Of a stretch of 64,000 nucleotides of DNA, positions 12,470 through 43,216 are shown in pieces. Origin of the DNA: Patescibacteria group bacterium (GTDB lineage Bacteria > Patescibacteriota > Minisyncoccia > 2-02-FULL-40-12 > IGHO2-01-FULL-4-A). The stretch is from the NCBI GenBank assembly GCA_038064915.1, contig JBBTSB010000006.1, positions 4,864-68,863 on the forward strand, given 5' to 3'. Both the position numbers and the translations under genes were made by a program. Every line of letters begins with the position of its first letter. The first letter of the stretch is position 1. The notes beneath the pieces are model-generated. The model worked only from the letters and a program-made list of their open reading frames with translations, did no database searches and had not been told where the DNA came from.

Positions 12470-12477
12470 GAGGGCCA

Positions 12478-12717
12478 ATGGCAGCGAAACCGAACGCGAT
12501 ATTCGGGCTCATCGAGCGGGCAGGGACGCCCCTCGAGCTCAAGAACATCAACCTCTATTTCTTGCAGGGCGACTGGAGCCTTGGTGATAGCGCCCTGATC
12601 TTCGAGGCGATCGAAAGAAGGGCACGTGAACTCCACGTGGAGGTCACGGAGTTCGTTCCTCCTCCGGAAGTCCGGAGCAGGGGTGATGACTCCCGCCCCA
12701 ACGACCAACGCGAGTAG
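12478..12717 (+). CDS. Small hypothetical protein in a GC-rich island; C-terminus DDSRPNDQRE is encoded by direct repeat 2
   Basis: 79 aa. RBS GGAGGG then ATG. Confidence 0.3.
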   Translation: MAAKPNAIFGLIERAGTPLELKNINLYFLQGDWSLGDSALIFEAIERRARELHVEVTEFVPPPEVRSRGDDSRPNDQRE

Positions 12718-12720
12718 CGG
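12685..12720. repeat. 36-bp direct repeat, copy 2
   Basis: See 12034..12069. Confidence 0.7.
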
Positions 12721-12849
12721 TCTGCCCCGCGCGGACCGCGCAGCACTAACAGAGACGGAGGTGCGGCGGCGCTAACCACGCGTTGCCCCCTCCGGTCATC
12801 AAACTCAACCCCAAGAAGGGGATTTTTATTTTCTATCGCCCACCTTACA

Positions 12850-12877
12850 CCCTCCCTCTTACCGATAAGAGGGAGGG
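12850..12877. repeat. GC-rich palindromic hairpin element, class 1 (CCCTCCCTCTTA-CCGA-TAAGAGGGAGGG)
   Basis: Perfect 12-bp stem with a 4-nt loop. Shares the 20-bp core CCCTCTTACCGATAAGAGGG with the reverse complement of 30902..30925. Flanked by inverted repeat CCTTACACCC / GGGTGTAAGG. Confidence 0.7.
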
Positions 12878-12892
12878 ACGGGGAGGGAGATA

Positions 12893-12996
12893 GTGGATAA
12901 CTGCCCCTTGCTCGGGTGTAAGGCAGTGGTGTATGATGGTCGAGTGGTGGTGAGAAGTGGATAGAAGTGGGGATAACCACCCCAATCTGTGGATAT
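12893..12996. promoter_or_regulatory. Cluster of DnaA-box-like 9-mers, all in one orientation, followed by an AT-rich stretch upstream of mraZ
   Basis: Three 9-mers each 8/9 against the TGTGGATAA consensus: GTGGATAAC at 12893..12901, TGGGGATAA inside TGGGGATAAC at 12969..12978, TGTGGATAT at 12988..12996. AT-rich TTTTATAAGTAAAAAATAG follows. Confidence 0.3.
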
Positions 12997-13063
12997 GTAC
13001 GAGCAAACAGCTGACCGGACCTGTTCTTTTATAAGTAAAAAATAGTTGGCTGTTTGCTCATAC

Positions 13064-17717: not shown

Positions 17718-18023
17718 ATGACGTTTGCGGTCATAAAAACGGGAGGTAAGCAATATAAAGTCGCCCAAGGCGACAAGATTTTGGTTGAAAAGCTTGAGAC
17801 TCCGGTTGGGGAACAGGTGACATTTGACCAAGTGCTTATGACCGATGATCAAATTGGGACTCCACTGGTGAGCGGCGCTTCTGTTACCGGAAAGGTTCTC
17901 GATCAAGGCAAAGCCAAGAAAAAGATCGTCTTTAAATATTCGTCAAAAACTCGCTATAAAAAGAAAAAAGGCCACAGACAGCCATTTACCAAAGTAGAGA
18001 TACTCTCTATTTCCGGTGTTTGA
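17718..18023 (+). CDS. rplU: 50S ribosomal protein L21
   Basis: MTFAVIKTGGKQYKVAQGDKILVEKL is the canonical L21 N-terminus. Confidence 0.9.
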   Translation: MTFAVIKTGGKQYKVAQGDKILVEKLETPVGEQVTFDQVLMTDDQIGTPLVSGASVTGKVLDQGKAKKKIVFKYSSKTRYKKKKGHRQPFTKVEILSISGV

Positions 18024-18603
18024 GGGCGTTTGCCAGTGTAATCTCATCCGCATACTCTACTGATGTGCCAGCTGCTAAACCCCGCGCCAAGCGGGTGATT
18101 TGTCCTCCGAAGGAGGATCCGCCTCGGGCGGATTTTAATTCCTGCTCCAAATACAAAGCAGTAGTTTCTCCGTAGGTGTTTGGATTGGTGGCCAAGATGA
18201 TTTCCTGTGCATCTTTAGCGCGAATGATAAGTTGACTAATTTTTAGCTTTTCCGGTAAAACACCGCCGGCCGGATTGATCGCTCCTCCGAGGACATGATA
18301 AACGCCATCATACACACCCGCCTTTTCCATTGATGCCAGATCGGTCACTTTCTCTACAATGGCAATTTTCCGCTGGTTTCGACGCGGATTACTGCAGATA
18401 TTGCAGAGATCTGCATCGGCGAAATTAAAACACTGCTGGCAGAGCGTCGGGCCTGTCTTGAGAGCTTCGATATGTTGCGCAAAAGTCTCGATGTCTTCGG
18501 GCGACCAATCCAACATCGCCAAAATCAAACGCGTAGCATGCCGCGGACCAACTCCCGGCAACTTCGTAAAAAAAGCGACTAGATTTTTGAACTTCTCTGA
18601 CAT
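18007..18603 (-). CDS. recR: Recombination protein RecR
   Basis: HhH motif LPGVGPRHATRLILAML, C4 zinc finger CQQCFNFADADLCNIC, and a Toprim domain. Confidence 0.85.
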   Translation of the reverse strand: MSEKFKNLVAFFTKLPGVGPRHATRLILAMLDWSPEDIETFAQHIEALKTGPTLCQQCFNFADADLCNICSNPRRNQRKIAIVEKVTDLASMEKAGVYDGVYHVLGGAINPAGGVLPEKLKISQLIIRAKDAQEIILATNPNTYGETTALYLEQELKSARGGSSFGGQITRLARGLAAGTSVEYADEITLANALKHRK

Positions 18604-19949
18604 TAAAAATGCTTTGCTAGATTTTTAAACGACACATGATCCTCATCAAAATACAGATCCACTTCACCGGTGGGGCCGTTGCGGTGTTTGGCAATGAGAA
18701 TTTCGGCGATATTTTTCTTGTCAGAATCGGGCTTCACTTTATCCTCGCGATAGATAAACATGACCAAGTCTGCATCCTGCTCGATACCACCGGAGTCGCG
18801 AAGGTCAGCAAGCCGTGGTCGCTGGTCGGGCCTACTTTCCACAGCACGATTCAGCTGGGAGAGCGCGAGCACTGGAACATTGAGCTCACGGGCGAGTGCC
18901 TTGAGGTTACGGGAGATCTCACTGATTTGATGGACCATACTGTCATAGTTTTTTGTTGCATTGATGAGCTGGAGATAGTCTACGACAATCAGGCCAAGCC
19001 CATGTTCAGCCTGCAATCGCCGAGCCATCGCGCGCATTTGCATGACGGTGGGGGATGAGGAGTCGTCAATAAAAATTCTCGTTTTTGCGAGACTATCCAG
19101 TCCCATGGCGACTTTTTCAAAGTCATTGTTTTCTCCTTCCGAGGAGAGCTTGCCCGTGCGCATTTTCCATAAACTTACCCCTGATTCGGCCGCGATCAAG
19201 CGATCCGTGACTTCTTCGCGGGACATTTCTATCGTAAAAAATCCCACCGGCACCTCACGTCCCACACTACGCACAATGTCCAGCGCAAGAGAAGTTTTTC
19301 CCATAGAGGGACGTGCGGCGAGGATGATGAGGTTTGATTTTTGGAGACCGGCGGTGATATTGTCCAGATCTACAAACCCAGTCGGCACGCCGCGCAATGC
19401 ACCATCACCCTTGTGAAGCTTGTCGAGACGATCAAAAGCATCGTGGAGAGATTTGTCCAGGCCCATGAAGTTTTGCTGGATAGAGCGCTGGGAGACAGAA
19501 AAGAGACGCTGTTCTGCGCGGTCGAGCAGTTCATCCACATCTTCGTCTTCCTGATAGCCCATGCCGATGATATTGTGCGCACTGTCGATGAGATCTCGCA
19601 GAATCTTTTTGCGCTGAACGATTTTTCCATAGTTGGTGACATGCGCGGAGGTGGGGACGGAATTCATGAGCGATGTGAGATAGCCAAGTCCGCCGACGGC
19701 ATCAAGCTGATTGGTTTCGGTGAGGGCATTGGAAAGGCTCAAAAGATCGATCGGTTCACGCTTTTGATACAGCTTCAGGACATTTTCGTAAATGATTTGA
19801 TGCGCGCGGCCATAAAAATCTCCCGGTTGCAAAAAATCCGCCACACGGTTGATTGATTCCTTATCAAGCAAAAGCGAGCCTAGGAGGCTTTTTTCCGCCT
19901 CAATATTTTGCGGGGGGAGCTTATCTGCGATTGTTCCGTTGCCTGGCAT
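18603..19949 (-). CDS. dnaB: Replicative DNA helicase DnaB
   Basis: N-terminal NIEAEKSLLGSLLLD. Walker A GKTSLALD. RecA-like core. Confidence 0.85.
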   Translation of the reverse strand: MPGNGTIADKLPPQNIEAEKSLLGSLLLDKESINRVADFLQPGDFYGRAHQIIYENVLKLYQKREPIDLLSLSNALTETNQLDAVGGLGYLTSLMNSVPTSAHVTNYGKIVQRKKILRDLIDSAHNIIGMGYQEDEDVDELLDRAEQRLFSVSQRSIQQNFMGLDKSLHDAFDRLDKLHKGDGALRGVPTGFVDLDNITAGLQKSNLIILAARPSMGKTSLALDIVRSVGREVPVGFFTIEMSREEVTDRLIAAESGVSLWKMRTGKLSSEGENNDFEKVAMGLDSLAKTRIFIDDSSSPTVMQMRAMARRLQAEHGLGLIVVDYLQLINATKNYDSMVHQISEISRNLKALARELNVPVLALSQLNRAVESRPDQRPRLADLRDSGGIEQDADLVMFIYREDKVKPDSDKKNIAEILIAKHRNGPTGEVDLYFDEDHVSFKNLAKHF

Positions 19950-22148: not shown

Positions 22149-22545
22149 TATTGTCGAAGAGAAGAGTATGGAAGAAGAGTATCTGAATAATTGGAAGCGG
22201 GCGCAGGCGGATCTGGCTAATTATAAAAAAGAGGAAATGCGGAGAATGGAGGAATTGGTGAAGTATGGAAACGAAGCAATTATTTTGGAGGTACTTGATG
22301 TAGTTGGAAATCTGGAGTTGGCCGCCGAGCATTTGAAAGATGAAGGATTAAAGCAGGTAATAAAGCAGTTTGAACGTTTACTAAAAAAATATGGTGTCGA
22401 GCGGATTGTGGTAGGCGATCACTTTGATCCCAATGTACATGAAGCAGTCGACGCTATAAATGAATCTAAACCGCTGGAAGAAGTCCGGCCGGGCTATACA
22501 TTGCACGGTAGGGTTATCCGCCCAGCGCGAATTAAAAACAAATAA
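22138..22545 (+). CDS. grpE: Nucleotide exchange factor GrpE
   Basis: [14 protein letters not shown] motif. Positioned between hrcA and dnaK. Confidence 0.8.
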
Positions 22546-22546
22546 C

Positions 22547-24400
22547 ATGGCAAAAATACTAGGAATCGATTTGGGAACGACAAACTCTGCGATGGCCATC
22601 GTCGAAGCCGGCCAGCCGAGGGTTCTGGAAAATAAAGAGGGTATGCGCACTACGCCGTCTATGGTGGCGGTAAAGGGCGCGGAACGGTACGTGGGAGTTA
22701 CGGCAAAGCGACAAGCGGTAACAAACCCAACGAATACCATCTTTTCAGTCAAGCGTCTCATTGGACGGCGCTTTAGTGATCCGGAAGTACAGCGCGATCA
22801 AAAACTCTTACCCTATGAGATTCGCAAAGGCCAGCACGACGATGTCGAGGTAAAACTTGGAGAAAAATGGATGAAGCCGGCAGAAATTTCGGCTATGGTT
22901 TTGCAAAAAATGAAGGCCGATGCGGAAGATAAACTTGGCGAAAAAATCACGGAAGCGATCATCACCGTACCTGCATACTTTGATGACTCACAACGCAAAG
23001 CTACAAAAGACGCAGGTGAAATTGCAGGACTTACCGTAAAGCGCGTGATCAATGAACCAACCGCGGCCGCGCTTGCGTACGGCTTTAACAAAAAAAAAGA
23101 CGAAAAAATCGTCGTCTATGATTTTGGTGGAGGTACGTTTGATATTTCGGTACTTGAGGTTTCAAGTGACACTATTGAAGTAAAAGCCACTGGCGGTGAT
23201 ACGCACCTGGGCGGCGATGATATTGATCAGCTGATCATCAATCACTTCATCGATGAGTTCAAAAAAGATCAGGGAATTGATGTCTCCAAAGATCGTCTTG
23301 TGGTCCAGCGCCTTAAAGACGCAGCTGAAAAGGCCAAGCATGAATTATCGAGCACGACTCAGACCGAAATCAATATCCCATTCCTTACGGCTGATGCCTC
23401 TGGCCCGAAGCACTTCAATCTGAACTTTACCCGTGCCAAGCTCGAATCCCTTACCCAGCCTCTCATCGACAAGTCCATTGAACTTACGAAAAAAGCGCTT
23501 GCTGATGCCAAGCTATCAACAAATCAGATTAATGAGGTTGTATTAGTAGGCGGCCAGACTCGCATGCCGGCAATTATTGAGGCAGTGAAGAAGCTTTTTG
23601 GCAAAGAGCCTCACAAAGATATCAATCCTGATGAAGTTGTTGCCGTTGGTGCGGCAATCCAGGGCGGTATCATGCAAGGCGACGTCAAAGACGTACTTTT
23701 GCTTGATGTCACGCCACTGTCACTCGGAATAGAGACTGCCGGCAACGTGATGACCAAGATGATAGAAAAAAATACTACGGTGCCGACAGCAAAGTCGCAG
23801 GTCTTTTCGACCTACTCCGACAATCAGCCGCATGTAGAAATACATGTATTACAGGGTGAGCGTGCTATGTCGGCGGACAACAAGACACTAGGCAAATTTA
23901 TCCTCGATGGCATTCCTCCTGCCCCCCGCGGCGTCCCACAGATCGAAGTCACCTTTGACATCGATGCAAATGGAATCTTGCACGTAAAGGCAAAAGATAA
24001 GGCGACGGGCAAGGAGCAAAGTATCCGTATTGAAGGCTCATCTGGAATCACTGACGAAGAGAAAAAGCGCATGATGGCTGATGCTGAAGCGCATGCGGCC
24101 GAAGACGCAAAGAAAAAAGAGCTCGTGGAAGCTCGCAATATGGCGGAGGCATTGGTATACTCGACGGAAAAGGCACTCAAGGATGCAGGTGATAAAGTCA
24201 GCGCCGATGATAAGAAGAATATCGAGGAAAAACTTGAGGCACTCAAGAAATTAAAGGACAGCGAGAACGTAGAAGAAATCAAAAAAGCCTCTGAAGAACT
24301 CTCGACTGCGGCGCAGAAAATAGGGGAGGCTATGTATAAGGCCCAACAGGCGCAAAAGCCAGAGGAGCCTAAAGTTGAAGAGAATCCACACCAAGAGTAA
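22547..24400 (+). CDS. dnaK: Chaperone DnaK (Hsp70)
   Basis: [20 protein letters not shown]; DLGGGTFD; substrate-binding domain; EEVD-less tail. Start adjusted to the MAKILG methionine. Confidence 0.9.
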
Positions 24401-24442
24401 CCCCCTCGAAGTCCCCCTTATAGATAAGGGGGAAGGGGGTTA
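24398..24442. repeat. Nested GC-rich palindromic element, class 2 (TAACCCCCT-CGAAGT-CCCCCTTAT-AG-ATAAGGGGG-A-AGGGGGTTA), probably also the dnaK terminator
   Basis: Inner stem CCCCCTTAT/ATAAGGGGG and outer stem TAACCCCCT/AGGGGGTTA. Same architecture as 41992..42036. Begins at the dnaK stop codon. Confidence 0.7.
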
Positions 24443-27738: not shown

Positions 27739-28393
27739 GAAGGTGCTGAAAATATTTTTGAGTATGAAGCATTTCGCTAGTTTCGCCGAAGCAAATCATT
27801 TGCTTGTCGAGGCACAAGATGTTGTTGGTGTATTGTGTTACCACATTCATATCATGAGAAATAATCAAAACAGTAAGCTCGTGAGAGTCGTGGAGTTTTT
27901 GTAGTAAGTGGTAAATTGTTTCTTCGCCACTTACATCAATGCCTGCAGTTGGCTCATCGAAGAGAAGTACATTTGGGTTTCCCAACAGCGCCCATGCAAT
28001 AAGAACACGCTGGAGTTCACCACCAGAAATCACTCCCAGAGAGTGATCGAGGATATGCTCATGAATGCCTACTTCTTTCAGGACAGATTTATAATTTTCA
28101 CTTTTTAATTTTAGAAATTCCCGAACTGTCAAAGGTAGATCTCTCTCGAGAGCCATTTTTTGGGGAACATAACCAATGCGCATTTCATTTGACCATTTGA
28201 TAGTACCAGAGTAGGGGATGAGCCCCAAAAGCGCACGAAAGAGCGTGCTTTTGCCAGCGCCATTTGGACCCACAATTGCCATGACTTCGCCTTTATTCAA
28301 ACTAAAATTGACGTTTTCGAGAATAACACGATTTTCAAGTTCAACTTTTAGGTCACTGACTTCAAGTATTGATTTTTCCGTATCCATTCTCAA
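27728..28393 (-). CDS. Metal ABC transporter ATP-binding protein
   Basis: Walker A GPNGAGKST, signature LSGGELQR, Walker B LLFDEPTAGID. Confidence 0.8.
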   Translation of the reverse strand: MRMDTEKSILEVSDLKVELENRVILENVNFSLNKGEVMAIVGPNGAGKSTLFRALLGLIPYSGTIKWSNEMRIGYVPQKMALERDLPLTVREFLKLKSENYKSVLKEVGIHEHILDHSLGVISGGELQRVLIAWALLGNPNVLLFDEPTAGIDVSGEETIYHLLQKLHDSHELTVLIISHDMNVVTQYTNNILCLDKQMICFGETSEMLHTQKYFQHLHEH

Positions 28394-29201
28394 AATCCTT
28401 TAAACTCATTGGCTGTCTGCCCTCCGGTTGTAAAGTGATAATTTCATTAGGTTTGTATTCTAGTATCTTAACACGTTTTCCCTTATGTAAAAACCACAGT
28501 CCCGGCCAGTCGTGGTAGGCGCGAAATTGATTGTAAATCTCCTGTGGTGTGCGTGACCAATCAATTTTTCCATCTTCGCGATTGAGCATTTTGGTATGTG
28601 TTGCTTTGCTGTGATCCTGCGTCACCGGCTTAATTTTCCCAGCAATATAATCCGGAATTATTTTTAACAGCAATTCCGCCCCTAAATTTGCAAGTTCATC
28701 TCTTATCTCCGTATGTAATTTGTTATTTGTAATTTGATATTTGATATTTCCCACGATGGGTCCATGGTCCATTTCGCTATCCAACTCAATGATCGTCACA
28801 CCAGTCGTCTCGTCGCCATTGTAGATTGCCGTCTTGATAGGGGATGGTCCTCGGTATTTTGGTAGTAGCGACGGATGAATATTGAGAAAACCGTGCTTGG
28901 GCTTTTTGAGGAGTTTGCCCGGAATGATTTTGCCGTACACCACAACCACACCTAGATCACAATCCGGCATCTCAAAGTCCTTGAGCCGAGCGGGCTGCAA
29001 CAGGGCTAGCTTATAGCTTATAGCTTGTAGCTTCACTGCGGAAGCTTTTAACTCCTTCTTTCTTCCCGCTCTCTCATCGGGTGGCGTCACGACAGCTTTG
29101 ATATCAAAACCAGCCTCGACAAGCTTTTGAAGCACAAGAGCAGCAAAATCGTCAGTCCCGAAGAAGACGATCTTTGATGAGTGTTCCTTGAAGGTGGTCA
29201 T
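28362..29201 (-). CDS. fmt: Methionyl-tRNA formyltransferase
   Basis: IVFFGTDDFA... and NIHPSLLPKYRGPSPI formyltransferase motifs. Adjacent to def. Confidence 0.85.
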   Translation of the reverse strand: MTTFKEHSSKIVFFGTDDFAALVLQKLVEAGFDIKAVVTPPDERAGRKKELKASAVKLQAISYKLALLQPARLKDFEMPDCDLGVVVVYGKIIPGKLLKKPKHGFLNIHPSLLPKYRGPSPIKTAIYNGDETTGVTIIELDSEMDHGPIVGNIKYQITNNKLHTEIRDELANLGAELLLKIIPDYIAGKIKPVTQDHSKATHTKMLNREDGKIDWSRTPQEIYNQFRAYHDWPGLWFLHKGKRVKILEYKPNEIITLQPEGRQPMSLKDFENGYGKINT

Positions 29202-29604
29202 ATTCGTGTTGAAAAATGCGCGCGAGAAATCCGCGGGCTTTGAGCTTGATTTTATTACCGTGCTCGTCGAGCGCTTTAAGACGGACTTTTTTTGAGCGGG
29301 GGATTTGCCTCCAATAATCGGGCATACTCAAGCAGCCCTCCTCCATCTCATCCTTGTCCCGCGAAAACTCGTTCATCTCCGGATTAATGTATGCATCCGG
29401 CACCTTGTGCTCCTCGGCGATTTTTTTGTCGATAATAAAAATTTGGAGATCTTTGCCCACCTGATTTGCCGCCAGTCCCACACCCTTTGCCTCGATCATC
29501 GTCTTGCGCATCTCTTCGATCAATTCCAAAATCTCCGGCGTAATCTCTCCAACCGGTTCCAGTTTTTTATGGAGGATTTTATTGGGCTCCTTGGTGATTT
29601 GCAT
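29152..29604 (-). CDS. def: Peptide deformylase
   Basis: Three Def motifs: GVGLAANQVG, EGCLS, HEYDHLQG. Confidence 0.85.
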   Translation of the reverse strand: MQITKEPNKILHKKLEPVGEITPEILELIEEMRKTMIEAKGVGLAANQVGKDLQIFIIDKKIAEEHKVPDAYINPEMNEFSRDKDEMEEGCLSMPDYWRQIPRSKKVRLKALDEHGNKIKLKARGFLARIFQHEYDHLQGTLIKDRLLRD

Positions 29605-29676
29605 CTACCAAATGTATACCATTTCTTGAAGAAAATTGACAGATCAGGTAGGATAGGGCTGCCTGGAAGGAGGAGC

Positions 29677-29898
29677 ATGGAGAAAATCACGGTAATTCGC
29701 GAAAAGGACCGGGGAATGGTCGAGTTGATTGGCGTCCCCGAGCACCGACGAGGTGAGTTGTCTCGTGTAGCGTTAGCCATTGGAGCCGAAAGGGTGGAGT
29801 ACGCTGGCAATGATCGGTGCGCCACGATTGTCTTTACCTTCGCTGGCGGAAAGAGTATCACGTCGATGGGATTGGCAACGTTCCGGGTCTCCGAGTAG
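29677..29898 (+). CDS. Small GC-rich hypothetical protein with a canonical RBS
   Basis: 74 aa (MEKITVIREKDRGMVELIGVPEH...). GGAAGGAGGAGC then ATG. Composition is clearly more GC-rich than the flanks. A GGCCGCGA...TCGCGGCC hairpin follows. Confidence 0.35.
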   Translation: MEKITVIREKDRGMVELIGVPEHRRGELSRVALAIGAERVEYAGNDRCATIVFTFAGGKSITSMGLATFRVSE

Positions 29899-29965
29899 GA
29901 GACCACAGGGCCGCGATTACTGCAGAGGTTCACGAGATGAGCCCGAGCATCTCGCGGCCTTTGCA

Positions 29966-31303
29966 TTACACGACCGTGATTGGGTCTACGTCAATTTGCC
30001 AGTCGGGGGGGAGGTTACGCAGAAGGTTTAAAGTTTCAGGTTTAAAGTTTAAAGTGGGGGCGCTCTTCAGAAGTACATTCCAGACATAAAGTCCGCGTTC
30101 GCGGAAAATGAGGGCGGGGTAGGGGACGCCGCCGAGTTTCGTGGCCATGTTTTGTGCGACTTGTTTTGCGATTCTTGCGTCACGATTCTTATACGTAAGT
30201 TTTATGAGTTTCGTAAACGGGGGATAATCAAACTGTTTGCGGAACTCCAGCTCGCGCTTCCAAAACTCGTCTACGGTTCCCGTCGCGGCGGCTACGAGTG
30301 CCGGATCTTCGGGATTGTAGGTTTGGATGATCGTGCGTTCGGACATGGAGGCCAGGAGGAGGGTTTGTTTGAGGAGCTTCTCTTCAGCACTGTAATCAGG
30401 GATATTAATTAATGCATCTGCATTCATGATGCAGAGAAAAGGCACTTTAATGTTTTGATTAAAAATACTTTGCGTGGCAAGCAAAATTTGCCAGTCTTCA
30501 CCGATCTTCTTTGACTCCGAGGTAAGCTTCGCGATTTTTGGAGCTTTTAGATTTTGATAGTTAAAGAATTTGAGGAGTTCGGTTTCTACTTTTTCTATTC
30601 CTACGCCACGACCTTTCAAATTATATCCTTTGCACTTTGGGCATTGTTTTGGTTGTGGCACTTGGTAACCGCAATGGTGACACTCCAAATTTTGATGAAC
30701 AACTAACGATGCGGAGCAGCTGGGGCAGGTAAACATGTGGCCGCATGATTCACATCGTAGAAAATTTGCGTAGCCTTTGCGCGGGATGAAGATAATAATT
30801 TTATCGTAGGTTTGCAAAGCCTCTTTGAGATGACGAGAAAAAATAGAGTAGTTTGCATCGCGTATCTCTTTTCTCATGTCTACGATCCGTATCTCCCCCC
30901 GCCCCCTCTTATCGGTAAGAGGGGGAAGGTCCAGAATTGGACCTGGGGAGATATATTTCTTGAAGTTTTTCTCTTCTGGATGCAGGAAAACCGCTCGCAT
31001 AGTAAGACCGAGAGAGATGAGGTAGTAGTCAGAAAGCTCTTGGGCTTTTTTGATGTGCTCTCCGGTGACGTTTTTTTTGAGAACTTTATCGATTTTTTTG
31101 AGAGTAAAATCAGCCTGCTTTTTAAATTGCAGTTTGCGCTCGGCAAGTGAGGCGGAAGCGACCACGACTGCTTTGATTTTGCGATTGTGAAACAAAACCT
31201 GGACGACGGAACCAACCGGCAGGGGAGTAGAGTGGAAATAGCTCACGATTTGGGGTTGATTCCGGGGCAGGAAAACAAGGGGTATGACGTCCAAAATAAC
31301 CAT
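29966..31303 (-). CDS. priA: Primosomal protein N' (PriA)-like protein lacking helicase lobe 1 (no Walker A/B)
   Basis: N-terminus is the PriA 3'BD-like domain (PLPVGSVVQVLFHNRKIKAVVV). Cys-rich CxxC x4 region CESCGH..CPSC..CHHCGY..CPKC. Helicase lobe 2/C-terminal domain with IIIFIPRKGYANFLRC. No GxxGxGK(T/S) anywhere in 445 aa. Confidence 0.55.
   Translation of the reverse strand: MVILDVIPLVFLPRNQPQIVSYFHSTPLPVGSVVQVLFHNRKIKAVVVASASLAERKLQFKKQADFTLKKIDKVLKKNVTGEHIKKAQELSDYYLISLGLTMRAVFLHPEEKNFKKYISPGPILDLPPLTDKRGRGEIRIVDMRKEIRDANYSIFSRHLKEALQTYDKIIIFIPRKGYANFLRCESCGHMFTCPSCSASLVVHQNLECHHCGYQVPQPKQCPKCKGYNLKGRGVGIEKVETELLKFFNYQNLKAPKIAKLTSESKKIGEDWQILLATQSIFNQNIKVPFLCIMNADALINIPDYSAEEKLLKQTLLLASMSERTIIQTYNPEDPALVAAATGTVDEFWKRELEFRKQFDYPPFTKLIKLTYKNRDARIAKQVAQNMATKLGGVPYPALIFRERGLYVWNVLLKSAPTLNFKPETLNLLRNLPPDWQIDVDPITVV
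30902..30925. repeat. GC-rich palindromic hairpin element, class 1 (CCCCCTCTTA-TCGG-TAAGAGGGGG), in-frame inside priA
   Basis: 10-bp stem with a 4-nt loop. Its reverse complement shares 20 bp with the 12850 element. Encodes PPLTDKRGRG in the priA frame at the junction where the ATPase lobe is missing. Confidence 0.7.
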
Positions 31304-31317: not shown

Positions 31318-32559
31318 ATGAACCCCGCAGAAATACGAGTCCGTTTTCCGCCCTCGCCCACGGGCTTTTTACACATAGGCAATATACGCACCTTTGTGTT
31401 TAATTGGCTATTTGCAAAACAAAACAAGGGCATGATTGTGCTGCGTATGGAGGATACCGATAGGGAACGGTCTGAAAAACATTTTGAAAAATTAATTATT
31501 GAGGATTTGAAGTGGCTCGGTTTGGATTATGATGAATTTGGTGGCCGCCAAAGCGAAAGAACGGACATTTACAACAAATACCTCAAGCAATTACTTGATT
31601 CGGGTGAGGCTTACGAAGATGACGGTGCAATAAAAATAAAAGTTGATACGGGTAAAACGATTATTTTTGATGATGTCATCCGAGGTCGTATAGAATTTGA
31701 TACAAAGCATGAAAAGGATTTTGTGATAGCGCGAAATCTCGACTCGCCGCTATATCACCTCGCAGTGGTAGTGGATGATTACGAAATGCGGATTTCACAT
31801 ATTATTCGTGGCGAGGATCATATTGCGAATACGGCAAAGCATATCTTACTTCAAGAGGCACTGGGATTTACTTCGCCGATCTATGCGCATTTGCCGCTGA
31901 TTCTTGGTTCTGACAAATCAAAGCTCTCCAAGCGTCATGGGGCAGTGGCACTCGATGAATATAAAGAGCAGGGCTTCCTACCTGATGCGATGTTTAATTA
32001 TCTTGCGATACTTGGCTATACGCCGTCGGCAGAAATTATTTCTCGGGAAGAACTCATCAAAGAATTTGAGCTTACCAAAATCCATAAAGCGGGCGCGGTG
32101 TTTGATATCAAGAAGCTGGAATGGATAAATGGAGAATACATAAAGAAAATGTCGAATGATGAACTGTTGGCGACGATCGGACAGAAGTATGAAAAGATAT
32201 TGCCGATGGTGCGAGAGCGGATGAAAAAAAAGAGCGATCTTGAAGAGTTTGATTTCTTCTTTGAAGCTCCGACGGTAGATCCTGAACTCTTGAAGTGGAA
32301 AAAAGCCAGCCTCGAAGAATCAAAAGCAATGCTTGCACAGGTGAAAGAAATAATAGAACAAACCGGTTTAGAAGATATACGTGCAAAATTGGATGCCATA
32401 GGGGCAGGGGATAGGGGACTCGTTTATTGGCCCTTTCGGGTGGCTTTGAGCGGCCGCAAGGCATCGCCTGATCCCGTAGATATTGCTATAATACTTGGTA
32501 AAGATGAAGTTCTGCGAAGAATTGAAAATGTAAATATCAAAGATCAAAATGACAACTAA
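31318..32559 (+). CDS. gltX: Glutamate--tRNA ligase
   Basis: PSPTGFLHIGN (HIGH motif) and KLSKR (KMSKS motif). 413 aa. Confidence 0.85.
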   Translation: MNPAEIRVRFPPSPTGFLHIGNIRTFVFNWLFAKQNKGMIVLRMEDTDRERSEKHFEKLIIEDLKWLGLDYDEFGGRQSERTDIYNKYLKQLLDSGEAYEDDGAIKIKVDTGKTIIFDDVIRGRIEFDTKHEKDFVIARNLDSPLYHLAVVVDDYEMRISHIIRGEDHIANTAKHILLQEALGFTSPIYAHLPLILGSDKSKLSKRHGAVALDEYKEQGFLPDAMFNYLAILGYTPSAEIISREELIKEFELTKIHKAGAVFDIKKLEWINGEYIKKMSNDELLATIGQKYEKILPMVRERMKKKSDLEEFDFFFEAPTVDPELLKWKKASLEESKAMLAQVKEIIEQTGLEDIRAKLDAIGAGDRGLVYWPFRVALSGRKASPDPVDIAIILGKDEVLRRIENVNIKDQNDN

Positions 32560-34916: not shown

Positions 34917-35262
34917 CGGCGGATTCGTTGGGGAAGGTAATTTTGTTTTTTTCGGCAATGCGCTTGGCGCCAGAGCACCAGGTAAAGTGGTAGAGGTGGC
35001 TGGAGGCGGCTTTGGAGGCAACGACAGTCTGGTCTTTAGCGGTCGGACCGCTAGATTCCGAATTAAGCGGTCCGACCGCTTGTCCGCTTGCATTCGGGCT
35101 CGAGATCGTCAGCGGTAGCTTAGCTACTTGATTCCCTACGGACATGCGGCCAAGGTTGAAGCTGATTATTGTTATGGAAATGATGGCTATGCCAAGGGTG
35201 AGTTCAGAGTGATAGACTTTGACGAATTCTTTAATCTTTGCTATCATATAGTAAGTATACAA
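34873..35262 (-). CDS. Membrane-anchored protein with a C-terminal Ada-type zinc-binding domain
   Basis: N-terminal TM LGIAIISITIISF. The C-terminal YHFTWCSGAKRIAEKNKITFPNESAAIAAGYSLAGNC matches the Ada_Zn_binding pattern YH...C...F...E.A..AGY..C..C. Confidence 0.45.
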   Translation of the reverse strand: MYTYYMIAKIKEFVKVYHSELTLGIAIISITIISFNLGRMSVGNQVAKLPLTISSPNASGQAVGPLNSESSGPTAKDQTVVASKAASSHLYHFTWCSGAKRIAEKNKITFPNESAAIAAGYSLAGNCQR

Positions 35263-40170: not shown

Positions 40171-41560
40171 AGACTGCGGCGAAGATTAAAAACGCTCGTT
40201 CATCAAAGAGTGCGGCATCGGTCAATAAATATCCATAGATCCACGGCAACATAATCAGCAATGCAGAGCCATATAGTGTAGATCGAAGCTCCCACGCACG
40301 GCGGAGAGGAATCCAGAGTAGCCACAGAAAGAGTATCAACGCAGGAATCCCAATTTCCGCGGCGACATGCAGGTAGACATTGTGCGCGGAGGAGCCGGCC
40401 TTGGCAAGTTCAATATCTTGTTGTAAGACTACGGGAAAATTTCCAATGCCAACTCCAAGCAATGGGTGCTGAACAATGGATCGCAGTGAAGCTTTCCAGA
40501 TTGCTATGCGAAGAGCGTTGGATGTCTCACCAAAATTTAAAATAGAACGGATACGACTACCCAGCGTGGCATTCCAGCCAAGACCGAATTGCGGCGTGGC
40601 GGAAAGCGGATACACAAAAGCAAACAGGAGTACGAATGCTACGAGCCACGGGGCGACTTTTCGAAATGAGCCTCGTAGCCATATCATGGCGATCATCGCC
40701 GCCAGAGTCATCACCCATCCTGCCAGCCACATACCACGGGTGTTGCTAAGAATTACTGCTAGGAAAGCGATAGGGATGAGGATGGAGGGCCAGTGGCGTT
40801 TGGTGTCGAGTTTTGCAAATATCGCCGGCAGTGCTAGCAATACAAACATCGGAAACGTGTGTGAATCAGTGAACAGCGAAAACATCCGTAAATTTATATT
40901 GCCGAACGTATTATATGTAAACCACGTATTTCCCTGCTCTACCGCTATCCGGCACCACTCCATTCCGAATTGCCGGCATTGTGCTCCCCAGCCCCAAAAG
41001 TCTACGAATTGATAAATATCTCCAAAATAGGTGCTAGCCAATTGCAAAAATCCGACCGCGAGCACAATAAAAAGAGGCGGAATAAAAGCGTTGACAATAC
41101 GACTTAGGTGTTGGACACCTAAGTGACTGATTACTATCGGCACCATGAGCAAGTTTGCAAAATAAATAATGCGTAGCACTGAAGCGGTTTTGTCCTGTGC
41201 TACAAATATAGAAAGAATAGAAATTAATAATAAAAGAATTAATAAAATTGAAAATTTGGATTTGATTGGAAATTGAAAATTGAAAATTGAAAATTTCGCA
41301 ATAATAAATTTTATGAAAATTATTATTGCGAGTACCCGCCACGTATTAAAATTATCAAAACTCGCCGTGAGTGGCAGTGCAATAAAAAGCGGAATAGATC
41401 GCACAAAAAGCACGGTTGCATCTTCTAGTGATGCAAAAAGCGTATAGATTATCAAAATACCAGCCAGCACAAACGCAAACCATCTCGGCAGTGCGCCAAA
41501 GATAATCAGAAAAAATAATACGACTTCTACGGCGTATACGCGATTTACATATTTCGACAT
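40133..41560 (-). CDS. O-antigen polymerase/ligase-like (Wzy/WaaL family) polytopic membrane protein
   Basis: 475 aa. More than ten TM helices, with a large periplasmic loop near the C-terminus. Sits inside the glycosyltransferase cluster. Confidence 0.55.
   Translation of the reverse strand: MSKYVNRVYAVEVVLFFLIIFGALPRWFAFVLAGILIIYTLFASLEDATVLFVRSIPLFIALPLTASFDNFNTWRVLAIIIFIKFIIAKFSIFNFQFPIKSKFSILLILLLLISILSIFVAQDKTASVLRIIYFANLLMVPIVISHLGVQHLSRIVNAFIPPLFIVLAVGFLQLASTYFGDIYQFVDFWGWGAQCRQFGMEWCRIAVEQGNTWFTYNTFGNINLRMFSLFTDSHTFPMFVLLALPAIFAKLDTKRHWPSILIPIAFLAVILSNTRGMWLAGWVMTLAAMIAMIWLRGSFRKVAPWLVAFVLLFAFVYPLSATPQFGLGWNATLGSRIRSILNFGETSNALRIAIWKASLRSIVQHPLLGVGIGNFPVVLQQDIELAKAGSSAHNVYLHVAAEIGIPALILFLWLLWIPLRRAWELRSTLYGSALLIMLPWIYGYLLTDAALFDERAFLIFAAVYGTLSINQSRLS
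41269..41295. repeat. Heptanucleotide tandem repeat: GAAATT followed by (GAAAATT)x3
   Basis: Near-perfect 7-bp unit repeated about 3.9 times inside the Wzy-like CDS, which is on the opposite strand. Confidence 0.8.
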
Positions 41561-42498
41561 AATTGCAAAAATCTATCCGTATGAGCTTTCCAGGAAAAAT
41601 TATTTGTGAGTGCAGGTTTTGGCATAGCCAATCCCCTGCTAATTCCATCAGCAATGCCATCAACCGTTGGCTGGCAATAAATTGCATAATCGCCAAGTAG
41701 CTCATGAGCTACGTCCGTATCGGCAACTACGGGTCTCACTCCCCTAGCCAGAGCTTCCAACGGCGGCAATCCAAATGCTTCCGTATCGGATACATACACA
41801 AATAGTCTGGCATTTTTATATAATTCTTCAAGCTTCTCATCAGTTACTCTCTCATAATATTCCACATCCAAATTTAATTTTGGATTATACTTATCTACAC
41901 CGACAACGATCAATTTAACTCCTAGTTTTTTGCAGGCCAAGATCGTCTCTCGTGCATGACGTCGTGGGAACATCTGACCAACGTATAATACATAACCCCC
42001 TTCCCCCTTATCATAAGGGGGACTAGAGGGGGTTATCCCCAGATAATTTACAAAAATTCTTCTGCTATCTATGCCAAATAATTTTGCCACGTTCTTGCCA
42101 GAAGTTTTAGAATAGACGCTAATCATAGTTGCCTTGCGGGCCGCGTGATTACTAAAGATTTTGTAGGCCAAGCGATATCTAAAAGGCAAATCTTTGCCGT
42201 GCATTTCGCGATGCAAGTCCTCCGTGAGCGCAACAATCGTCTTACAAAAAATGCCATAAGGTAGCATGTAATTGGGAAAAAAGACGATGTCGGGTTTCGT
42301 GAGCCAAATCTTGATAGGCAAAATAATATAATAGTACAAACTGAAACTCGGTATCTTGCCTTTATAATAATAAATAAATTTAAACTCTTCTGTTTTGGGC
42401 AGGTTTTTGATGAGCTCTTTGACCGTGCGGCCGATCCCCCACGAATCGCCTTCACCCGACTCGCATTCGATACCGATTTTTATCATAATCTCTAGCAC
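41545..42498 (-). CDS. Glycosyltransferase family 4 (GT-B fold)
   Basis: C-terminal EAFGLPPLEALARGVRPVVADTDVAHELLGD is the typical GT4 E-x7-E region. Confidence 0.7.
   Translation of the reverse strand: MLEIMIKIGIECESGEGDSWGIGRTVKELIKNLPKTEEFKFIYYYKGKIPSFSLYYYIILPIKIWLTKPDIVFFPNYMLPYGIFCKTIVALTEDLHREMHGKDLPFRYRLAYKIFSNHAARKATMISVYSKTSGKNVAKLFGIDSRRIFVNYLGITPSSPPYDKGEGGYVLYVGQMFPRRHARETILACKKLGVKLIVVGVDKYNPKLNLDVEYYERVTDEKLEELYKNARLFVYVSDTEAFGLPPLEALARGVRPVVADTDVAHELLGDYAIYCQPTVDGIADGISRGLAMPKPALTNNFSWKAHTDRFLQLCRNM
41992..42036. repeat. Nested GC-rich palindromic element, class 2 (ATAACCCCC-TT-CCCCCTTAT-C-ATAAGGGGG-ACTAGA-GGGGGTTAT), in-frame inside the GT4 gene
   Basis: Inner and outer stems as in the dnaK-proximal copy. 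Translated in the GT4 frame it gives ..SSPPYDKGEGGYVLYVG.., an insertion just before the conserved GT4 core. Confidence 0.7.
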
Positions 42499-43216
42499 CT
42501 TGCAGAATTGCTTTTGACTCTTCTATATTACGACCAAGTAAAATTTTTATGCGTTGTTTAAGCTTAATCCAAAAACTCCATATCGGCAACGCGAGACGGA
42601 CATACCAGGTACCGTGGGTTTTGTTGAGAAGCAGTGCGTTGCGTGTGTGGTAGTAGAGTAGATTAGCAGAGCCAAGGGTGGAGGTAGTGGCAGAAGTCGC
42701 ATGCATAAATTGAGCGGTTGAACCGCTCAATTTGAAGCCGGCTTTTTGGGCTCGCACACAAAACTCGACATCTTCGTAGTACAAAAAATATCTCTCATCA
42801 AAGAAGCCAATTTTACTAAAAACTTCTTTTTTAATTAATAAAACAGCTCCCGAAAGATAGTCAAAGCCAAAGACTCTCCCCTGCTCCAGGCCGACGATGT
42901 CCGCATCGCCGGATGGCATTTCTTTGAGAACGACATCGTTATTGAGAATTAATATTTTTTCCGCGCCATGCTCGAGCGCGTATTTAATGCCAATGTTGTT
43001 GCCACCGGAATAGCCGAGATTTTTGGGAGAGTTTAAGAGTTTAAAGTTTAAAGGTTTAAACGTTTCAAGCCAATACTCAACGTTTTTCAGATGCTCTACG
43101 TCGGATCCGTTGTCGACGACGATCACGTCGGCATTTAGAGGCCGGAGAGACTCCAGGCACGCTAGCGTACGACCTGATTGATTATATTGGAGAACGACGA
43201 TTGAAAGTTTTGCCAT
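42452..43216 (-). CDS. Glycosyltransferase family 2
   Basis: LSIVVLQYNQ, VVDNGS, YSGGNNIG, YYEDVEF (DxD-like). Confidence 0.7.
   Translation of the reverse strand: MAKLSIVVLQYNQSGRTLACLESLRPLNADVIVVDNGSDVEHLKNVEYWLETFKPLNFKLLNSPKNLGYSGGNNIGIKYALEHGAEKILILNNDVVLKEMPSGDADIVGLEQGRVFGFDYLSGAVLLIKKEVFSKIGFFDERYFLYYEDVEFCVRAQKAGFKLSGSTAQFMHATSATTSTLGSANLLYYHTRNALLLNKTHGTWYVRLALPIWSFWIKLKQRIKILLGRNIEESKAILQGARDYDKNRYRMRVG

What the first reader, a model, noticed from the sequence alone, without database searches (positions are those of the whole stretch)
29966..31303. PriA lacks the entire ATPase lobe, and the junction is occupied by a palindromic hairpin element
The protein has a PriA-type N-terminal 3' DNA-binding domain. 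It then runs, through ..YISPGPILDLPPLTDKRGRGEIRIVDMRK.. (the palindrome-encoded peptide), straight into sequence matching helicase lobe 2 (IIIFIPRKGYANFLRC, comparable to PriA ..ILFLNRRGYAP..LC), the Cys-rich 4xCxxC region, and the C-terminal domain. No Walker A (GxxGxGKT/S) or DExH box is present anywhere in the 445 aa. Roughly 200 residues of motor domain are absent at exactly the point where the GC-rich hairpin element (30902..30925) is inserted. This points either to a naturally motor-less PriA that keeps DNA binding and primosome assembly, or to a deletion mediated by or associated with the repeat element. The gene is still in-frame.
Basis: partly seen in the sequence, partly recalled or inferred. 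Interest (0 to 1): 0.6.

Follow-up and report, generated by a model that had tools for sequence, protein, structure and literature searches.

The report
Motor-less PriA with in-frame hairpin repeat
This groundwater Patescibacteria genome carries a conserved replication-restart protein PriA that has lost the whole ATP-binding half of its helicase motor, and a small palindromic repeat that also sits in other genes happens to lie in the leftover linker.

Summary
ORF 29966-31303 (-) encodes a 445-aa PriA with the 3' DNA-binding domain, helicase lobe 2, a Cys-rich region with all eight Cys, and the C-terminal domain. RecA lobe 1, Walker A, DExH and the motif VI arginine finger are absent.

It is not an artefact or a recent accident. 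The identical gene sits on independently assembled contigs. Twenty orthologs (54-75% identity, same architecture, same gltX|priA-def-fmt synteny) show dN/dS of about 0.1 or less.

The form ends a reductive series. Of the 150 nearest 50%-identity cluster representatives, 123 are full-length PriAs lacking all three ATPase motifs. Sister forms keep only pieces of lobe 1.

The palindrome at 30902-30925 is real and belongs to a dispersed repeat family. The window holds four copies, two of them in-frame in genes. At least 126 copies occur in metagenomes, several inside housekeeping genes. It sits in the disordered linker, is patchy among orthologs and absent from the outgroups, so it probably did not cause the deletion.

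Most likely function: an ATP-independent fork-binding and primosome-assembly adaptor. This goes further than the Deinococcus PriA pseudohelicase, so it is a new variant of a known kind.

The parts
29966..31303 (-). priA, short motor-less form (445 aa plus stop)
   Evidence: ORF listed. Pfam and NCBIfam PriA hits. PDB PriA alignment. Only PriA structures match the AF2 model, with E 3e-20 to 2e-12. The DNA is identical on three other contigs.
30989..31303 (-). 3' DNA-binding domain (aa 1-105)
   Evidence: PF17764, E 5.8e-8, residues 11-105. Block pLDDT is 57-88, mostly above 80. dN/dS is 0.06-0.15 against orthologs.
30896..30988 (-). Inter-domain linker (aa 106-136) in the place of RecA lobe 1; carries the conserved HPEE, KKY and GPxLD residues
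   Evidence: pLDDT is below 50 for residues 114-135. This is the most variable part of the ortholog alignment. The tblastn HSPs of long relatives abut here.
30902..30925 (-). Palindromic hairpin core CCCCCTCTTA-CCGA-TAAGAGGGGG, in-frame (PPLTDKRG, aa 127-134), followed by the tag GGGGGGAGATA (30890-30900)
   Evidence: The same element sits at the same site in the P0004, P0007 and P0016 genes. Family consensus.
30890..30953 (-). Extended Y-shaped fold: outer stem TATCTCCCC/GGGGAGATA enclosing a GGTCCA..TGGACC hairpin and the main hairpin
   Evidence: RNA MFE is -41.5 kcal/mol with z -4.2. The same fold occurs in the P0004 gene (-44.8, z -6.5) and is absent from the P0002 gene.
30224..30895 (-). 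Helicase lobe 2 (aa 137-360), with motif IV R175/G177 kept, motif V degenerate (ATQS) and the motif VI loop deleted
   Evidence: Alignments. Invariant columns listed.
30632..30754 (-). Cys-rich region with 4 x CxxC (C184, C187, C193, C196, C208, C211, C221, C224)
   Evidence: PF18319 hit. All eight Cys are invariant in 20 orthologs and in the 15-sequence alignment that spans canonical PriAs.
29969..30223 (-). PriA C-terminal domain (aa 361-445)
   Evidence: PF18074, E 6.7e-7, residues 362-441. Block pLDDT is 62-88 apart from the disordered last five residues.
12850..12877 (+). Second copy of the same hairpin subfamily (CCCTCCCTCTTA-CCGA-TAAGAGGGAGGG plus tag GGGAGATAG), intergenic upstream of mraZ; the extended fold spans 12826-12900
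   Evidence: Fold is -41.4 kcal/mol with z -6.1.
24412..24433 (+). Related element (GTAACCCCC..TCCCCCTTA-TAGA-TAAGGGGGA..GGGGGTTATG) immediately after the stop of a 646-aa ORF (22460-24400) read as dnaK by position
   Evidence: The HSP70 assignment comes from the same-species locus L206.
42002..42022 (-). Related element, in-frame inside a glycosyltransferase gene (41545-42498, peptide GITPSSPPYDKGEGGYV), at the N-terminal edge of the Glycos_transf_1 domain hit
   Evidence: The Pfam Glycos_transf_1 hit starts at residue 166.
18603..19949 (-). dnaB replicative helicase, the presumed client of PriA, with an intact Walker A (ARPSMGKT)
   Evidence: Pfam DnaB and DnaB_C, E 1.9e-97. Motif check.
28362..29604 (-). 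def (29152-29604) and fmt (28362-29201) downstream of priA: conserved synteny
   Evidence: The same order holds in orthologous loci.
31318..32559 (+). gltX, divergent upstream neighbour: conserved synteny, no ATPase subunit

Best explanation
The gene is the genuine priA ortholog of a narrow clade of groundwater Patescibacteria. It is a stable, selected, motor-less form.

**Inferred history**
1. In a large group of Patescibacteria, PriA first lost Walker A, DExH and the motif VI arginine finger and became a pseudohelicase.
2. The now useless RecA lobe 1 was then eroded by internal deletions in several lineages.
3. In this clade it disappeared completely. A roughly 30-residue disordered linker is left between the 3' DNA-binding domain and lobe 2.

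**Proposed working (inferred)**
- The protein cannot bind or hydrolyse ATP, translocate or unwind.
- It still recognises abandoned forks. The 3'BD would bind the 3' end of the nascent leading strand. Lobe 2 and the CTD would contact DNA.
- It would act as a scaffold, through the zinc-bound CRR and the CTD, that recruits the machinery loading the DnaB encoded 10 kb away.

**The palindrome**
- It is a passenger. It is an in-frame copy of a dispersed palindromic repeat of roughly 50 nt.
- Family consensus: ATAACTCCCCC-N-CCCCCTCTTA-N3-TAAGAGGGGG-N-GGGGGAGTTAT.
- The element is open in two of three frames on each strand, and it is tolerated in disordered or inter-domain segments.
For: **Shown: the architecture**
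- establish the domain content.
- ATPase motifs are absent.
- No lobe-1 homolog occurs anywhere in the window.

**Shown: it is not an artefact**
- The DNA is identical on NCBI, Logan and ENA contigs.

**Shown: conservation**
- Twenty orthologs at 54-75% identity cover 100% of the query.
- Synonymous sites are saturated while dN is 0.2-0.3. Measurable dN/dS is 0.06-0.23 in the three folded domains.
- All eight CRR cysteines are invariant, as are R175/G177 and the IQTYNP and YPP motifs, even against canonical PriAs.
- Synteny gltX|priA-def-fmt is conserved.

**Shown: the reductive series**
- 192 of 263 fetched relatives lack Walker A, DExH and motif VI together.
- 123 of the 150 nearest 50%-identity cluster representatives lack all three at full length.
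- Intermediates keep only parts of lobe 1: P0212, P0023/24, P0041/P0129 and P0241.
- A rough NJ tree puts the short forms in one clade, with P0023 as nearest neighbour and P0024 next, nested in the long pseudohelicases.
- Only one 50%-identity cluster representative (P0021) has the short architecture.

**Shown: the hairpin is a passenger**
- It falls in the low-pLDDT linker.
- Its distribution among orthologs is patchy.
- The window holds four copies, two of them in-frame.
- At least 126 copies lie on at least 120 metagenome contigs.
- In-frame copies sit in a DEAD/MrfA helicase, a tRNA methyltransferase-family (MnmA-type) protein, an M17 peptidase, a 5'-3' exonuclease and a UDP-glucose dehydrogenase.

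**From the literature**
- E. coli priA300 (K230R) lacks ATPase and helicase activity yet behaves nearly like wild type and supports restart in vitro (PMC5778457).
- D. radiodurans PriA is an ATPase-dead pseudohelicase that still binds forks and DnaB (PMC4504706).

**In the same window**
- DnaB is present with an intact Walker A.
Against: - No biochemical or genetic data exist for this protein. Fork binding and DnaB recruitment are inferred from homology only.
- In E. coli the SSB-binding site lies between lobe 1, the 3'BD and the CTD. The fork-contacting aromatic loop is in lobe 1 (PMC5778457). Two known functional surfaces are therefore gone or incomplete here.
- The AF2 model is only moderate (mean pLDDT 68.5, pTM 0.44), so the inter-domain arrangement is unknown.
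- I could not search the rest of this genome for a second full-length PriA or a free-standing lobe 1.
- The restart partners of Patescibacteria (DnaD/DnaI, DciA, PriB/DnaT) were not identified.
- The NJ tree is rough.
- The hairpin-bearing linker has the same length as the hairpin-free one. Its synonymous divergence is unusually low (dS 0.79 against saturation elsewhere). A pure passenger model does not explain either fact.
Confidence: 0.68

Rival explanations
1. Recent deletion or decaying pseudogene: recombination or slippage at the palindromic repeat removed lobe 1, the in-frame remnant is drifting, and the gene has no function.
For: - The hairpin lies within about 20 codons of the point where alignments to long relatives break.
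- Palindromes are known deletion hot spots (general knowledge).
Against: - Twenty orthologs share the same architecture down to 54% identity.
- dS is saturated with dN/dS of about 0.1 in all three domains.
- The functional cysteines are invariant.
- The hairpin is absent from P0002, P0003, P0015 and most clade members, and from the sister intermediates.
- Intermediate truncations in other lineages indicate several steps.
Confidence: 0.03
2. Split helicase: lobe 1 with Walker A/B is encoded as a separate polypeptide elsewhere and associates with this protein in trans to rebuild an active PriA motor.
For: - Only 64 kb of the genome could be examined.
- A PriA split at residue 157 is reported as almost fully functional when both pieces are present (PMC5778457).
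Against: - No lobe-1-like sequence occurs in any frame of the window.
- No ATPase gene is next to priA in seven orthologous loci.
- Lobe 2 has lost the motif VI arginine finger and motif V, so it could not complete an ATPase site.
- Full-length relatives had already lost Walker A and DExH before the deletion.
Confidence: 0.04
3. Neofunctionalised remnant: the protein is conserved but no longer works in replication restart. It might act only as an SSB- or DNA-binding factor, or as a zinc-ribbon regulator, with restart handled by another route.
For: - The loss of lobe 1 removes the fork-junction loop and part of the SSB site known from E. coli.
- Patescibacteria have unusual, reduced replication and repair gene sets (general knowledge).
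- NCBI annotates the protein as 'hypothetical', and it scores below the TIGR00595 cut-off (190 against 230 bits).
Against: - The 3'BD, CRR and CTD, which are the modules specific to PriA rather than generic to helicases, are exactly what is retained and under selection.
- priA-def-fmt synteny is kept.
- Helicase-dead PriAs are known to remain restart-competent.
Confidence: 0.2
4. The hairpin is functional in priA rather than a passenger. The 64-nt Y-shaped RNA/DNA structure might pause translation between domains, control mRNA stability, or serve as a protein-binding site.
For: - The fold is strong: -41.5 kcal/mol, z -4.2. It is kept in the P0004 gene (z -6.5).
- 40 of 41 element bases are identical between genes whose proteins are 70% identical. 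Linker dS is 0.79 against saturation elsewhere.
- One compensatory change occurs in the outer stem between P0001 and P0007.
- The element replaces rather than lengthens the linker.
Against: - The closest orthologs do without it.
- The same element occurs in intergenic DNA and in unrelated genes. Its sequence conservation is therefore a property of the repeat family, not of priA.
- No U-tract or other regulatory signature follows it.
Confidence: 0.1

Closest known systems
Deinococcus radiodurans PriA pseudohelicase (Lopper et al. 2015, PMC4504706)
   Same: It is a PriA ortholog whose Walker A/B residues are not conserved. It has no ATPase or unwinding activity but keeps ssDNA and fork binding and interacts with DnaB. 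The role as a restart scaffold without a motor is the same as proposed here.
   Different: The Deinococcus protein keeps the helicase core, and only the motifs are degenerate. Here RecA lobe 1 is physically gone (about 170 aa relative to Patescibacterial pseudohelicases) and the motif VI loop of lobe 2 is deleted. The lineage is different (Patescibacteria). No biochemistry exists for this protein.
E. coli priA300 (K230R) helicase-dead mutant
   Same: It shows that ATPase, helicase and translocase activities are dispensable for most PriA-dependent restart in vivo and in vitro (PMC5778457).
   Different: It is a laboratory point mutant with an intact fold. It remains defective for some substrates, such as Mu transposition. 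It also has the SSB site and the lobe-1 DNA loop that are missing here.
Canonical PriA (primosomal protein N', TIGR00595; structures 4NL4, 6DGD, 8FAK)
   Same: The 3'BD, lobe 2, the CRR with 4 x CxxC, the CTD and the priA-def-fmt gene context are shared. Only PriA structures match the model.
   Different: This protein has no WH domain, no lobe 1 and no ATPase motifs. It scores below the equivalog cut-off.
Rickettsia palindromic elements (RPEs) and REP/MITE-like repeats (for the hairpin)
   Same: These are short palindromic repeats dispersed through a reduced genome. They are found both between genes and in-frame inside conserved protein-coding genes, at positions that tolerate extra peptide. 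RPE facts are from my own knowledge (Ogata et al. 2000, Science); PMC10969869 was only seen in a search listing and not read.
   Different: The element here is about 50 nt (17 aa) rather than 100-150 nt. Its sequence is unrelated and it is found in Patescibacteria-type groundwater contigs. No associated transposase (RAYT/TnpA) was looked for. In priA it replaces linker residues rather than adding to them.

Membership tests
PriA / primosomal protein N' | N-terminal 3' DNA-binding domain | tested here: met
   PF17764, E 5.8e-8, above the gathering score (32.9 against 22.7 bits).
PriA / primosomal protein N' | SF2 helicase lobe 1 with Walker A (GxxGxGKT) and DExH | tested here: not met
   No Pfam DEAD hit. 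No motif by regex. The alignment to PDB PriA starts at residue ~407 of the target. No lobe 1 anywhere in the window.
PriA / primosomal protein N' | Helicase lobe 2 with motifs IV-VI | tested here: inconclusive
   Sequence and fold match PriA lobe 2. Motif IV R175/G177 is invariant. Motif V reads ATQS and the motif VI GRxGR loop is deleted. There is no Pfam Helicase_C hit.
PriA / primosomal protein N' | Cys-rich region with four CxxC pairs (two Zn sites) inserted in lobe 2 | tested here: met
   PF18319 hit. All eight Cys are invariant.
PriA / primosomal protein N' | PriA C-terminal domain | tested here: met
   PF18074, 30.5 bits against a 26.9-bit cut-off.
PriA / primosomal protein N' | Score above the NCBIfam equivalog cut-off (TIGR00595) | tested here: not met
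   190.4 bits against a cut-off of 230.35. The match covers only profile positions 163-509.
PriA / primosomal protein N' | Orthologous gene context (priA-def-fmt) | tested here: met
   The same context holds in orthologous loci.
PriA / primosomal protein N' | Binds forks or D-loops and promotes loading of the replicative helicase | not testable with these tools
   This needs purified protein or genetics. DnaB is present in the window.
PriA pseudohelicase (Deinococcus type) | Catalytic Walker A/B residues not conserved | tested here: met
PriA pseudohelicase (Deinococcus type) | Complete two-lobe helicase scaffold retained | tested here: not met
   Lobe 1 is absent. Long relatives such as P0025, P0050 and P0055 do meet this feature.
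RPE / REP-like palindromic repeat (the hairpin) | Multi-copy, dispersed, imperfect palindrome with a conserved stem | tested here: met
   Four copies in the window. Consensus.
RPE / REP-like palindromic repeat (the hairpin) | In-frame occurrence inside conserved protein-coding genes | tested here: met
   priA and a glycosyltransferase in the window. Five Pfam-confirmed housekeeping genes in metagenome loci.
RPE / REP-like palindromic repeat (the hairpin) | Mobilising enzyme (RAYT / IS200-IS605 TnpA) or demonstrated transposition | not tested
   No search was made. It needs complete genomes.

The most novel reading that the evidence does not exclude
A large part of the Patescibacteria has turned PriA from a helicase into a non-enzymatic fork adaptor, and this clade shows the natural minimal PriA: 3'BD + lobe 2/CRR + CTD. 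That would mean the whole ATP-binding RecA lobe, together with the lobe-1 DNA loop and part of the SSB pocket, is dispensable for replication restart in living cells. As a side result, these genomes carry an apparently undescribed family of 50-nt palindromic elements that colonise housekeeping genes in-frame, much like Rickettsia RPEs.
Probability: 0.55. Interest if true: 0.65.

Novelty: new variant of a known kind. Interest (0 to 1): 0.55.

Why it matters
PriA is the near-universal bacterial replication-restart initiator. Which of its parts are really needed is still debated.

- **A natural deletion experiment.** A conserved protein keeps only the 3'BD, lobe 2/CRR and CTD. This supports the view that PriA's core job is structure-specific recognition and scaffolding, not unwinding.
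- **A minimal construct.** The protein gives a starting point for structural and biochemical work.
- **Scale of the pseudohelicase state.** It is not a Deinococcus oddity. It is the commonest state among the Patescibacterial PriAs retrieved as nearest relatives: 123 of the 150 nearest cluster representatives. This bears on how these ultrasmall, host-dependent bacteria replicate and repair DNA.
- **Annotation.** The form is currently labelled 'hypothetical protein' and falls below the PriA equivalog cut-off.
- **The hairpin family.** It is a further example of selfish palindromes living inside coding sequence. It is also a practical warning that such insertions mark tolerant linkers rather than causing rearrangements.

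Tried and rejected
- **Hidden or frameshifted lobe 1.** tblastn of canonical and pseudohelicase lobe-1 segments against all six frames of the window found nothing beyond the lobe 1/2 boundary inside priA.
- **Assembly artefact.** Rejected, because the DNA is identical on three other contigs from different assemblies.
- **Adjacent ATPase subunit.** None in the window or in seven related loci. The unknown small genes between priA and def in L082 and L085 are lineage-specific insertions.
- **The 360-nt GC-rich gap between priA and def (29605-29965).** No Rfam match and no similarity to related loci. Left unexplained.
- **Rfam on the hairpin regions.** Only sub-threshold miRNA-like hairpin hits, taken as chance.
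- **Vestiges of lobe 1 in the linker.** MAFFT puts LHPEE under motif Ia and KNFKKYI under the strand before motif II. HHalign places these residues with no confidence. I keep this as a suggestion only.
- **Genome-contig scan for short forms.** The scan used two narrow peptide patterns and recovered only two short-form species representatives, L003 and L004. It therefore says little about taxonomic breadth.
- **Other short hits.**
  - P0254 and P0258 (522 and 480 aa) lack the 3'BD and look like fragments or mis-called starts, so I did not count them.
  - P0241, P0041, P0129 and P0212 look like independent partial erosions.
- **Literature.** No paper in the library combines PriA with Patescibacteria or CPR in a relevant way. 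No description of this repeat family was found.
Full report
**1. What is at the coordinates**

The minus-strand ORF 29966-31303 encodes 445 aa. Pfam finds three PriA-specific domains, all above gathering score:
- PriA_3primeBD at residues 11-105
- Zn_ribbon_PriA at 193-216
- PriA_C at 362-441

It finds no DEAD or Helicase_C hit. NCBIfam PriA equivalogs match only their C-terminal two thirds. For TIGR00595 the match covers profile positions 163-509 and scores 190 bits against a cut-off of 230.

phmmer against PDB aligns residues 141-442 to residues ~407-745 of K. pneumoniae and E. coli PriA. That region is helicase lobe 2 with its embedded Cys-rich region, plus the C-terminal domain.

An AlphaFold2 model built on 20 orthologs has mean pLDDT 68.5. 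It has three folded parts and a disordered stretch at 114-135. In the PDB, only PriA structures match it significantly (E 3e-20 to 2e-12), and the next hit is at E 0.02.

Regexes find none of GK[ST], G..G.G, DE.[HQ] or GR..R. tblastn with full-length relatives gives two HSPs that abut at 30887-30901. Residues 122-290 of the nearest long relative (P0025) have no counterpart, nor do residues 120-398 of a canonical PriA (P0076). No lobe-1-like sequence is found in any frame of the 64-kb window.

One addition is needed: lobe 2 has also lost motif VI, because the GRxGR loop is deleted, and motif V reads ATQS.

**2. Real and conserved, not an accident**

The identical protein is recorded on five contigs from NCBI, Logan and ENA assemblies of Hainich groundwater and other samples. 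On the three contigs I read, the gene DNA is identical to the window. NCBI lists it as a hypothetical protein of a 'Patescibacteria group bacterium' MAG.

The protein search returned 20 further clusters of 442-497 aa that cover 100% of the query at 54-74% identity. Aligned, they share the architecture and more than 100 invariant positions, including all eight CRR cysteines.

Codon-level comparison with eight orthologous genes shows saturated or very high dS with dN of 0.2-0.3. Where it can be measured, dN/dS is 0.06-0.15 in the 3'BD, about 0.12 in lobe 2 (one pair only) and 0.09-0.23 in the CTD. All retained domains are therefore under purifying selection.

The gene order gltX (divergent) | priA - def - fmt is kept in the orthologous loci. 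priA-def-fmt is also a common bacterial priA context (my own knowledge), which supports orthology. No ATPase gene is adjacent in any locus.

**3. The short form ends a reductive series**

A phmmer scan of 1.84 billion cluster representatives found 12,922 PriA relatives. Exactly one representative (P0021, 477 aa) aligns to the query in a single full-length stretch. All other top hits are 590-690 aa and align in two stretches, the 3'BD and lobe 2/CTD. The fully deleted form is therefore one narrow clade.

The long neighbours are not normal helicases:
- 192 of the 263 proteins fetched lack Walker A, DExH and motif VI together.
- 123 of the 150 nearest representatives lack all three at full length.
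- Only 10 of those 150 have all three.

A 15-sequence alignment shows the steps:

| Stage | Example proteins | State |
|---|---|---|
| Canonical | P0066, P0076, P0103 | GxTGSGKT, DEEH, QxxGRxGR all present |
| Long pseudohelicase | P0025, P0050, P0055 | Lobe 1 kept; Walker A replaced, motif II VDDESNE/VDEEENE/VDDPLHE, motif VI loop deleted |
| Partial loss | P0212 | Walker A region missing |
| Partial loss | P0023, P0024 | Walker A region and the Ia-Ib segment missing |
| Partial loss | P0041, P0129, P0241 | Only the Ib-III segment kept |
| Full loss | P0001-P0021 | No lobe 1 at all |

A rough NJ tree on 407 shared columns places the short forms in one clade whose nearest neighbour is P0023, with P0024 next, nested among the long pseudohelicases. 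The shared deletion of the motif VI loop links the short forms to those pseudohelicases. It also indicates that catalysis was lost before lobe 1 was removed.

The winged-helix domain of proteobacterial PriA is absent from all Patescibacterial sequences in this alignment, canonical ones included. Its absence here is not special.

**4. The palindrome**

*The element in priA.* CCCCCTCTTA-CCGA-TAAGAGGGGG at 30902-30925 encodes PPLTDKRG (residues 127-134) and lies in the disordered linker. With its flanks it folds into a 64-nt Y-shaped structure of -41.5 kcal/mol with z -4.2.

*Distribution among orthologs.* The orthologous genes of P0004, P0007 and P0016 carry the same element at the same place. 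Those of P0002 and P0015 have none by DNA, and P0003 and most other clade members have none by peptide. On the tree the distribution is patchy, since P0001's sister P0003 lacks it. The sister forms that keep part of lobe 1 lack it too.

*Other copies in the window.*
- 12850-12877 is intergenic upstream of mraZ. It shares the unusual CCGA loop and the GGGAGATA tag.
- 24412-24433 lies right after the stop of the ORF read as dnaK.
- 42002-42022 is in-frame in a glycosyltransferase, at the N-terminal edge of the Glycos_transf_1 hit.

The consensus is (C)ATAAC(T/G)CCCCC-N2-3-CCCCCTCTTA-N3-TAAGAGGGGG-N2-3-GGGGGAGTTAT. Most copies lie in short ORFs and are probably intergenic. About 15 lie inside long ORFs. 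Five of these are Pfam-confirmed conserved genes whose domain hits span the insertion:
- a DEAD/MrfA helicase
- a tRNA methyltransferase-family (MnmA-type) protein
- an M17 aminopeptidase
- a 5'-3' exonuclease
- a UDP-glucose dehydrogenase

*Reading.* The element is a dispersed REP/RPE-like palindrome that survives in-frame at tolerant sites. It is open in two of three frames on both strands, reading PPLxLRGG or PSYxKRG.

*Verdict.* It marks the linker; it did not make it. I cannot fully exclude that an ancestral copy took part in one of the deletion steps.

*Three things stay unexplained.*
- In P0001, P0004 and P0007 the hairpin linker is as long as the hairpin-free one, so it looks like a replacement and not an insertion.
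- The element is 40/41 identical between genes whose proteins are 70% identical, and linker dS is 0.79 while the rest of the gene is saturated.
- The GPxLD codons in those three genes form an extra hairpin.

**5. How it most likely works**

Shown: the protein lacks every residue needed to bind or hydrolyse ATP. It keeps, under selection, the three modules that make PriA PriA rather than a generic SF2 helicase.

From the literature:
- E. coli PriA K230R has no ATPase, helicase or translocase activity. Cells carrying it are nearly wild type and it supports restart in vitro. Helicase activity is not needed on many fork types (PMC5778457).
- D. radiodurans PriA is a natural ATPase-dead pseudohelicase that still binds ssDNA and forks with near-normal affinity and interacts with DnaB (PMC4504706).

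Inferred:
- This protein binds abandoned forks through the 3'BD and the remaining DNA-contacting surfaces.
- It nucleates loading of the DnaB encoded at 18603-19949, whose Walker A is intact.
- Any unwinding of a duplex lagging arm would be left to other enzymes.

Caveats:
- The E. coli SSB pocket lies between lobe 1, the 3'BD and the CTD.
- The fork-junction aromatic loop is in lobe 1.
- Both surfaces are missing or incomplete here, so the mode of fork and SSB recognition must differ.
- The restart partners in Patescibacteria are unknown.

**6. Comparison with what is known, and novelty**

The protein works like a PriA pseudohelicase. It fails two membership features of canonical PriA, namely lobe 1 with its motifs and the equivalog cut-off. 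It also fails one feature of the Deinococcus-type pseudohelicase, the complete scaffold.

Full-text searches found no paper that links PriA to Patescibacteria or CPR in any relevant way, and no description of the repeat. I rate it a new variant of a known kind.

The wider point may be of more interest than the single gene: the pseudohelicase state dominates among the Patescibacterial PriAs retrieved as nearest relatives, and lobe 1 has been eroded repeatedly.

**7. Verdict**

- Confidence that the gene is a real, selected, lobe-1-less PriA ortholog is about 0.95.
- Confidence that it acts as an ATP-independent restart adaptor is about 0.65-0.7.
- Interest is 0.55.

Noticed in passing
window 42002-42022, within ORF 41545-42498 (-): A glycosyltransferase (Glycos_transf_1) gene carries an in-frame copy of a related palindromic element (ATAACCCCC..TCCCCCTTA-TCA-TAAGGGGGA..GGGGGTTAT; peptide GITPSSPPYDKGEGGYV). 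It sits at the N-terminal edge of the Glycos_transf_1 domain hit.
   Followed up: yes
window 24412-24433; also L003 12290-12345: A hairpin element of the same family lies immediately after the stop of the 646-aa ORF 22460-24400, read as dnaK because the same-species locus L206 has an HSP70 gene at the matching position. A relative's genome (L003) has two tandem hairpins at the equivalent place after an HSP70-like ORF. This may be a preferred site or a terminator-like role. No T-run follows.
   Followed up: partly
window 12470-13045: A roughly 570-nt GC-rich stretch (about 52% GC) upstream of mraZ has no convincing ORF. It contains the second hairpin copy within a 75-nt extended fold (z -6.1). 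Rfam gives no real hit.
   Followed up: partly
window 29605-29965: A 360-nt, 54% GC gap lies between priA and def. There is no Rfam match and no similarity to related loci. In some relatives def follows priA directly, while others have several unknown small genes inserted here, so this is a variable spot.
   Followed up: partly
window 4631-4678, 35038-35080, 42707-42733: Another set of perfect or near-perfect hairpins is built on AGCGGT...ACCGCT cores. This may be a second repeat family in this genome.
   Followed up: no
window 60677-62347: A large serine recombinase (Resolvase + Recombinase + Zn_ribbon_recom, 517 aa, minus strand) overlaps the tRNA-Arg/tRNA-Pro pair at 60677-60824. This may be the edge of an integrated element.
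   Followed up: no
homologs P0015, P0024, P0041, P0129, P0020, P0018, P0016: PriA homologs in other lineages carry other short, repeat-looking peptide insertions. Examples are VTRYTLHD three times in P0024, IHDTRYTIHD in P0015, KIQDSRFKIQDS in P0041, LPPRARLAKGGR in P0129, EVRPLSSELRGLT in P0020 and GGSSSGG in P0016. Several sit at the same lobe 1/lobe 2 linker or inside the zinc ribbon. This suggests that several palindromic repeat families colonise coding sequence in these genomes.
   Followed up: no
L158 (metagenome locus), 375-aa open frame spanning the hairpin, read as FemAB-like by eye: One ORF contains several different repeat-derived peptides in a row (NCHPEFISGSQ.., NCHPERSEGS.., NSPQPSLNIREGGNEIPPLNLRGGEGEL). 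It is an extreme case of in-frame repeat colonisation.
   Followed up: no
window 18007-19949: RecR (18007-18603) and DnaB (18603-19949) are adjacent on the minus strand, 10 kb from priA. DnaB keeps an intact Walker A.
   Followed up: partly
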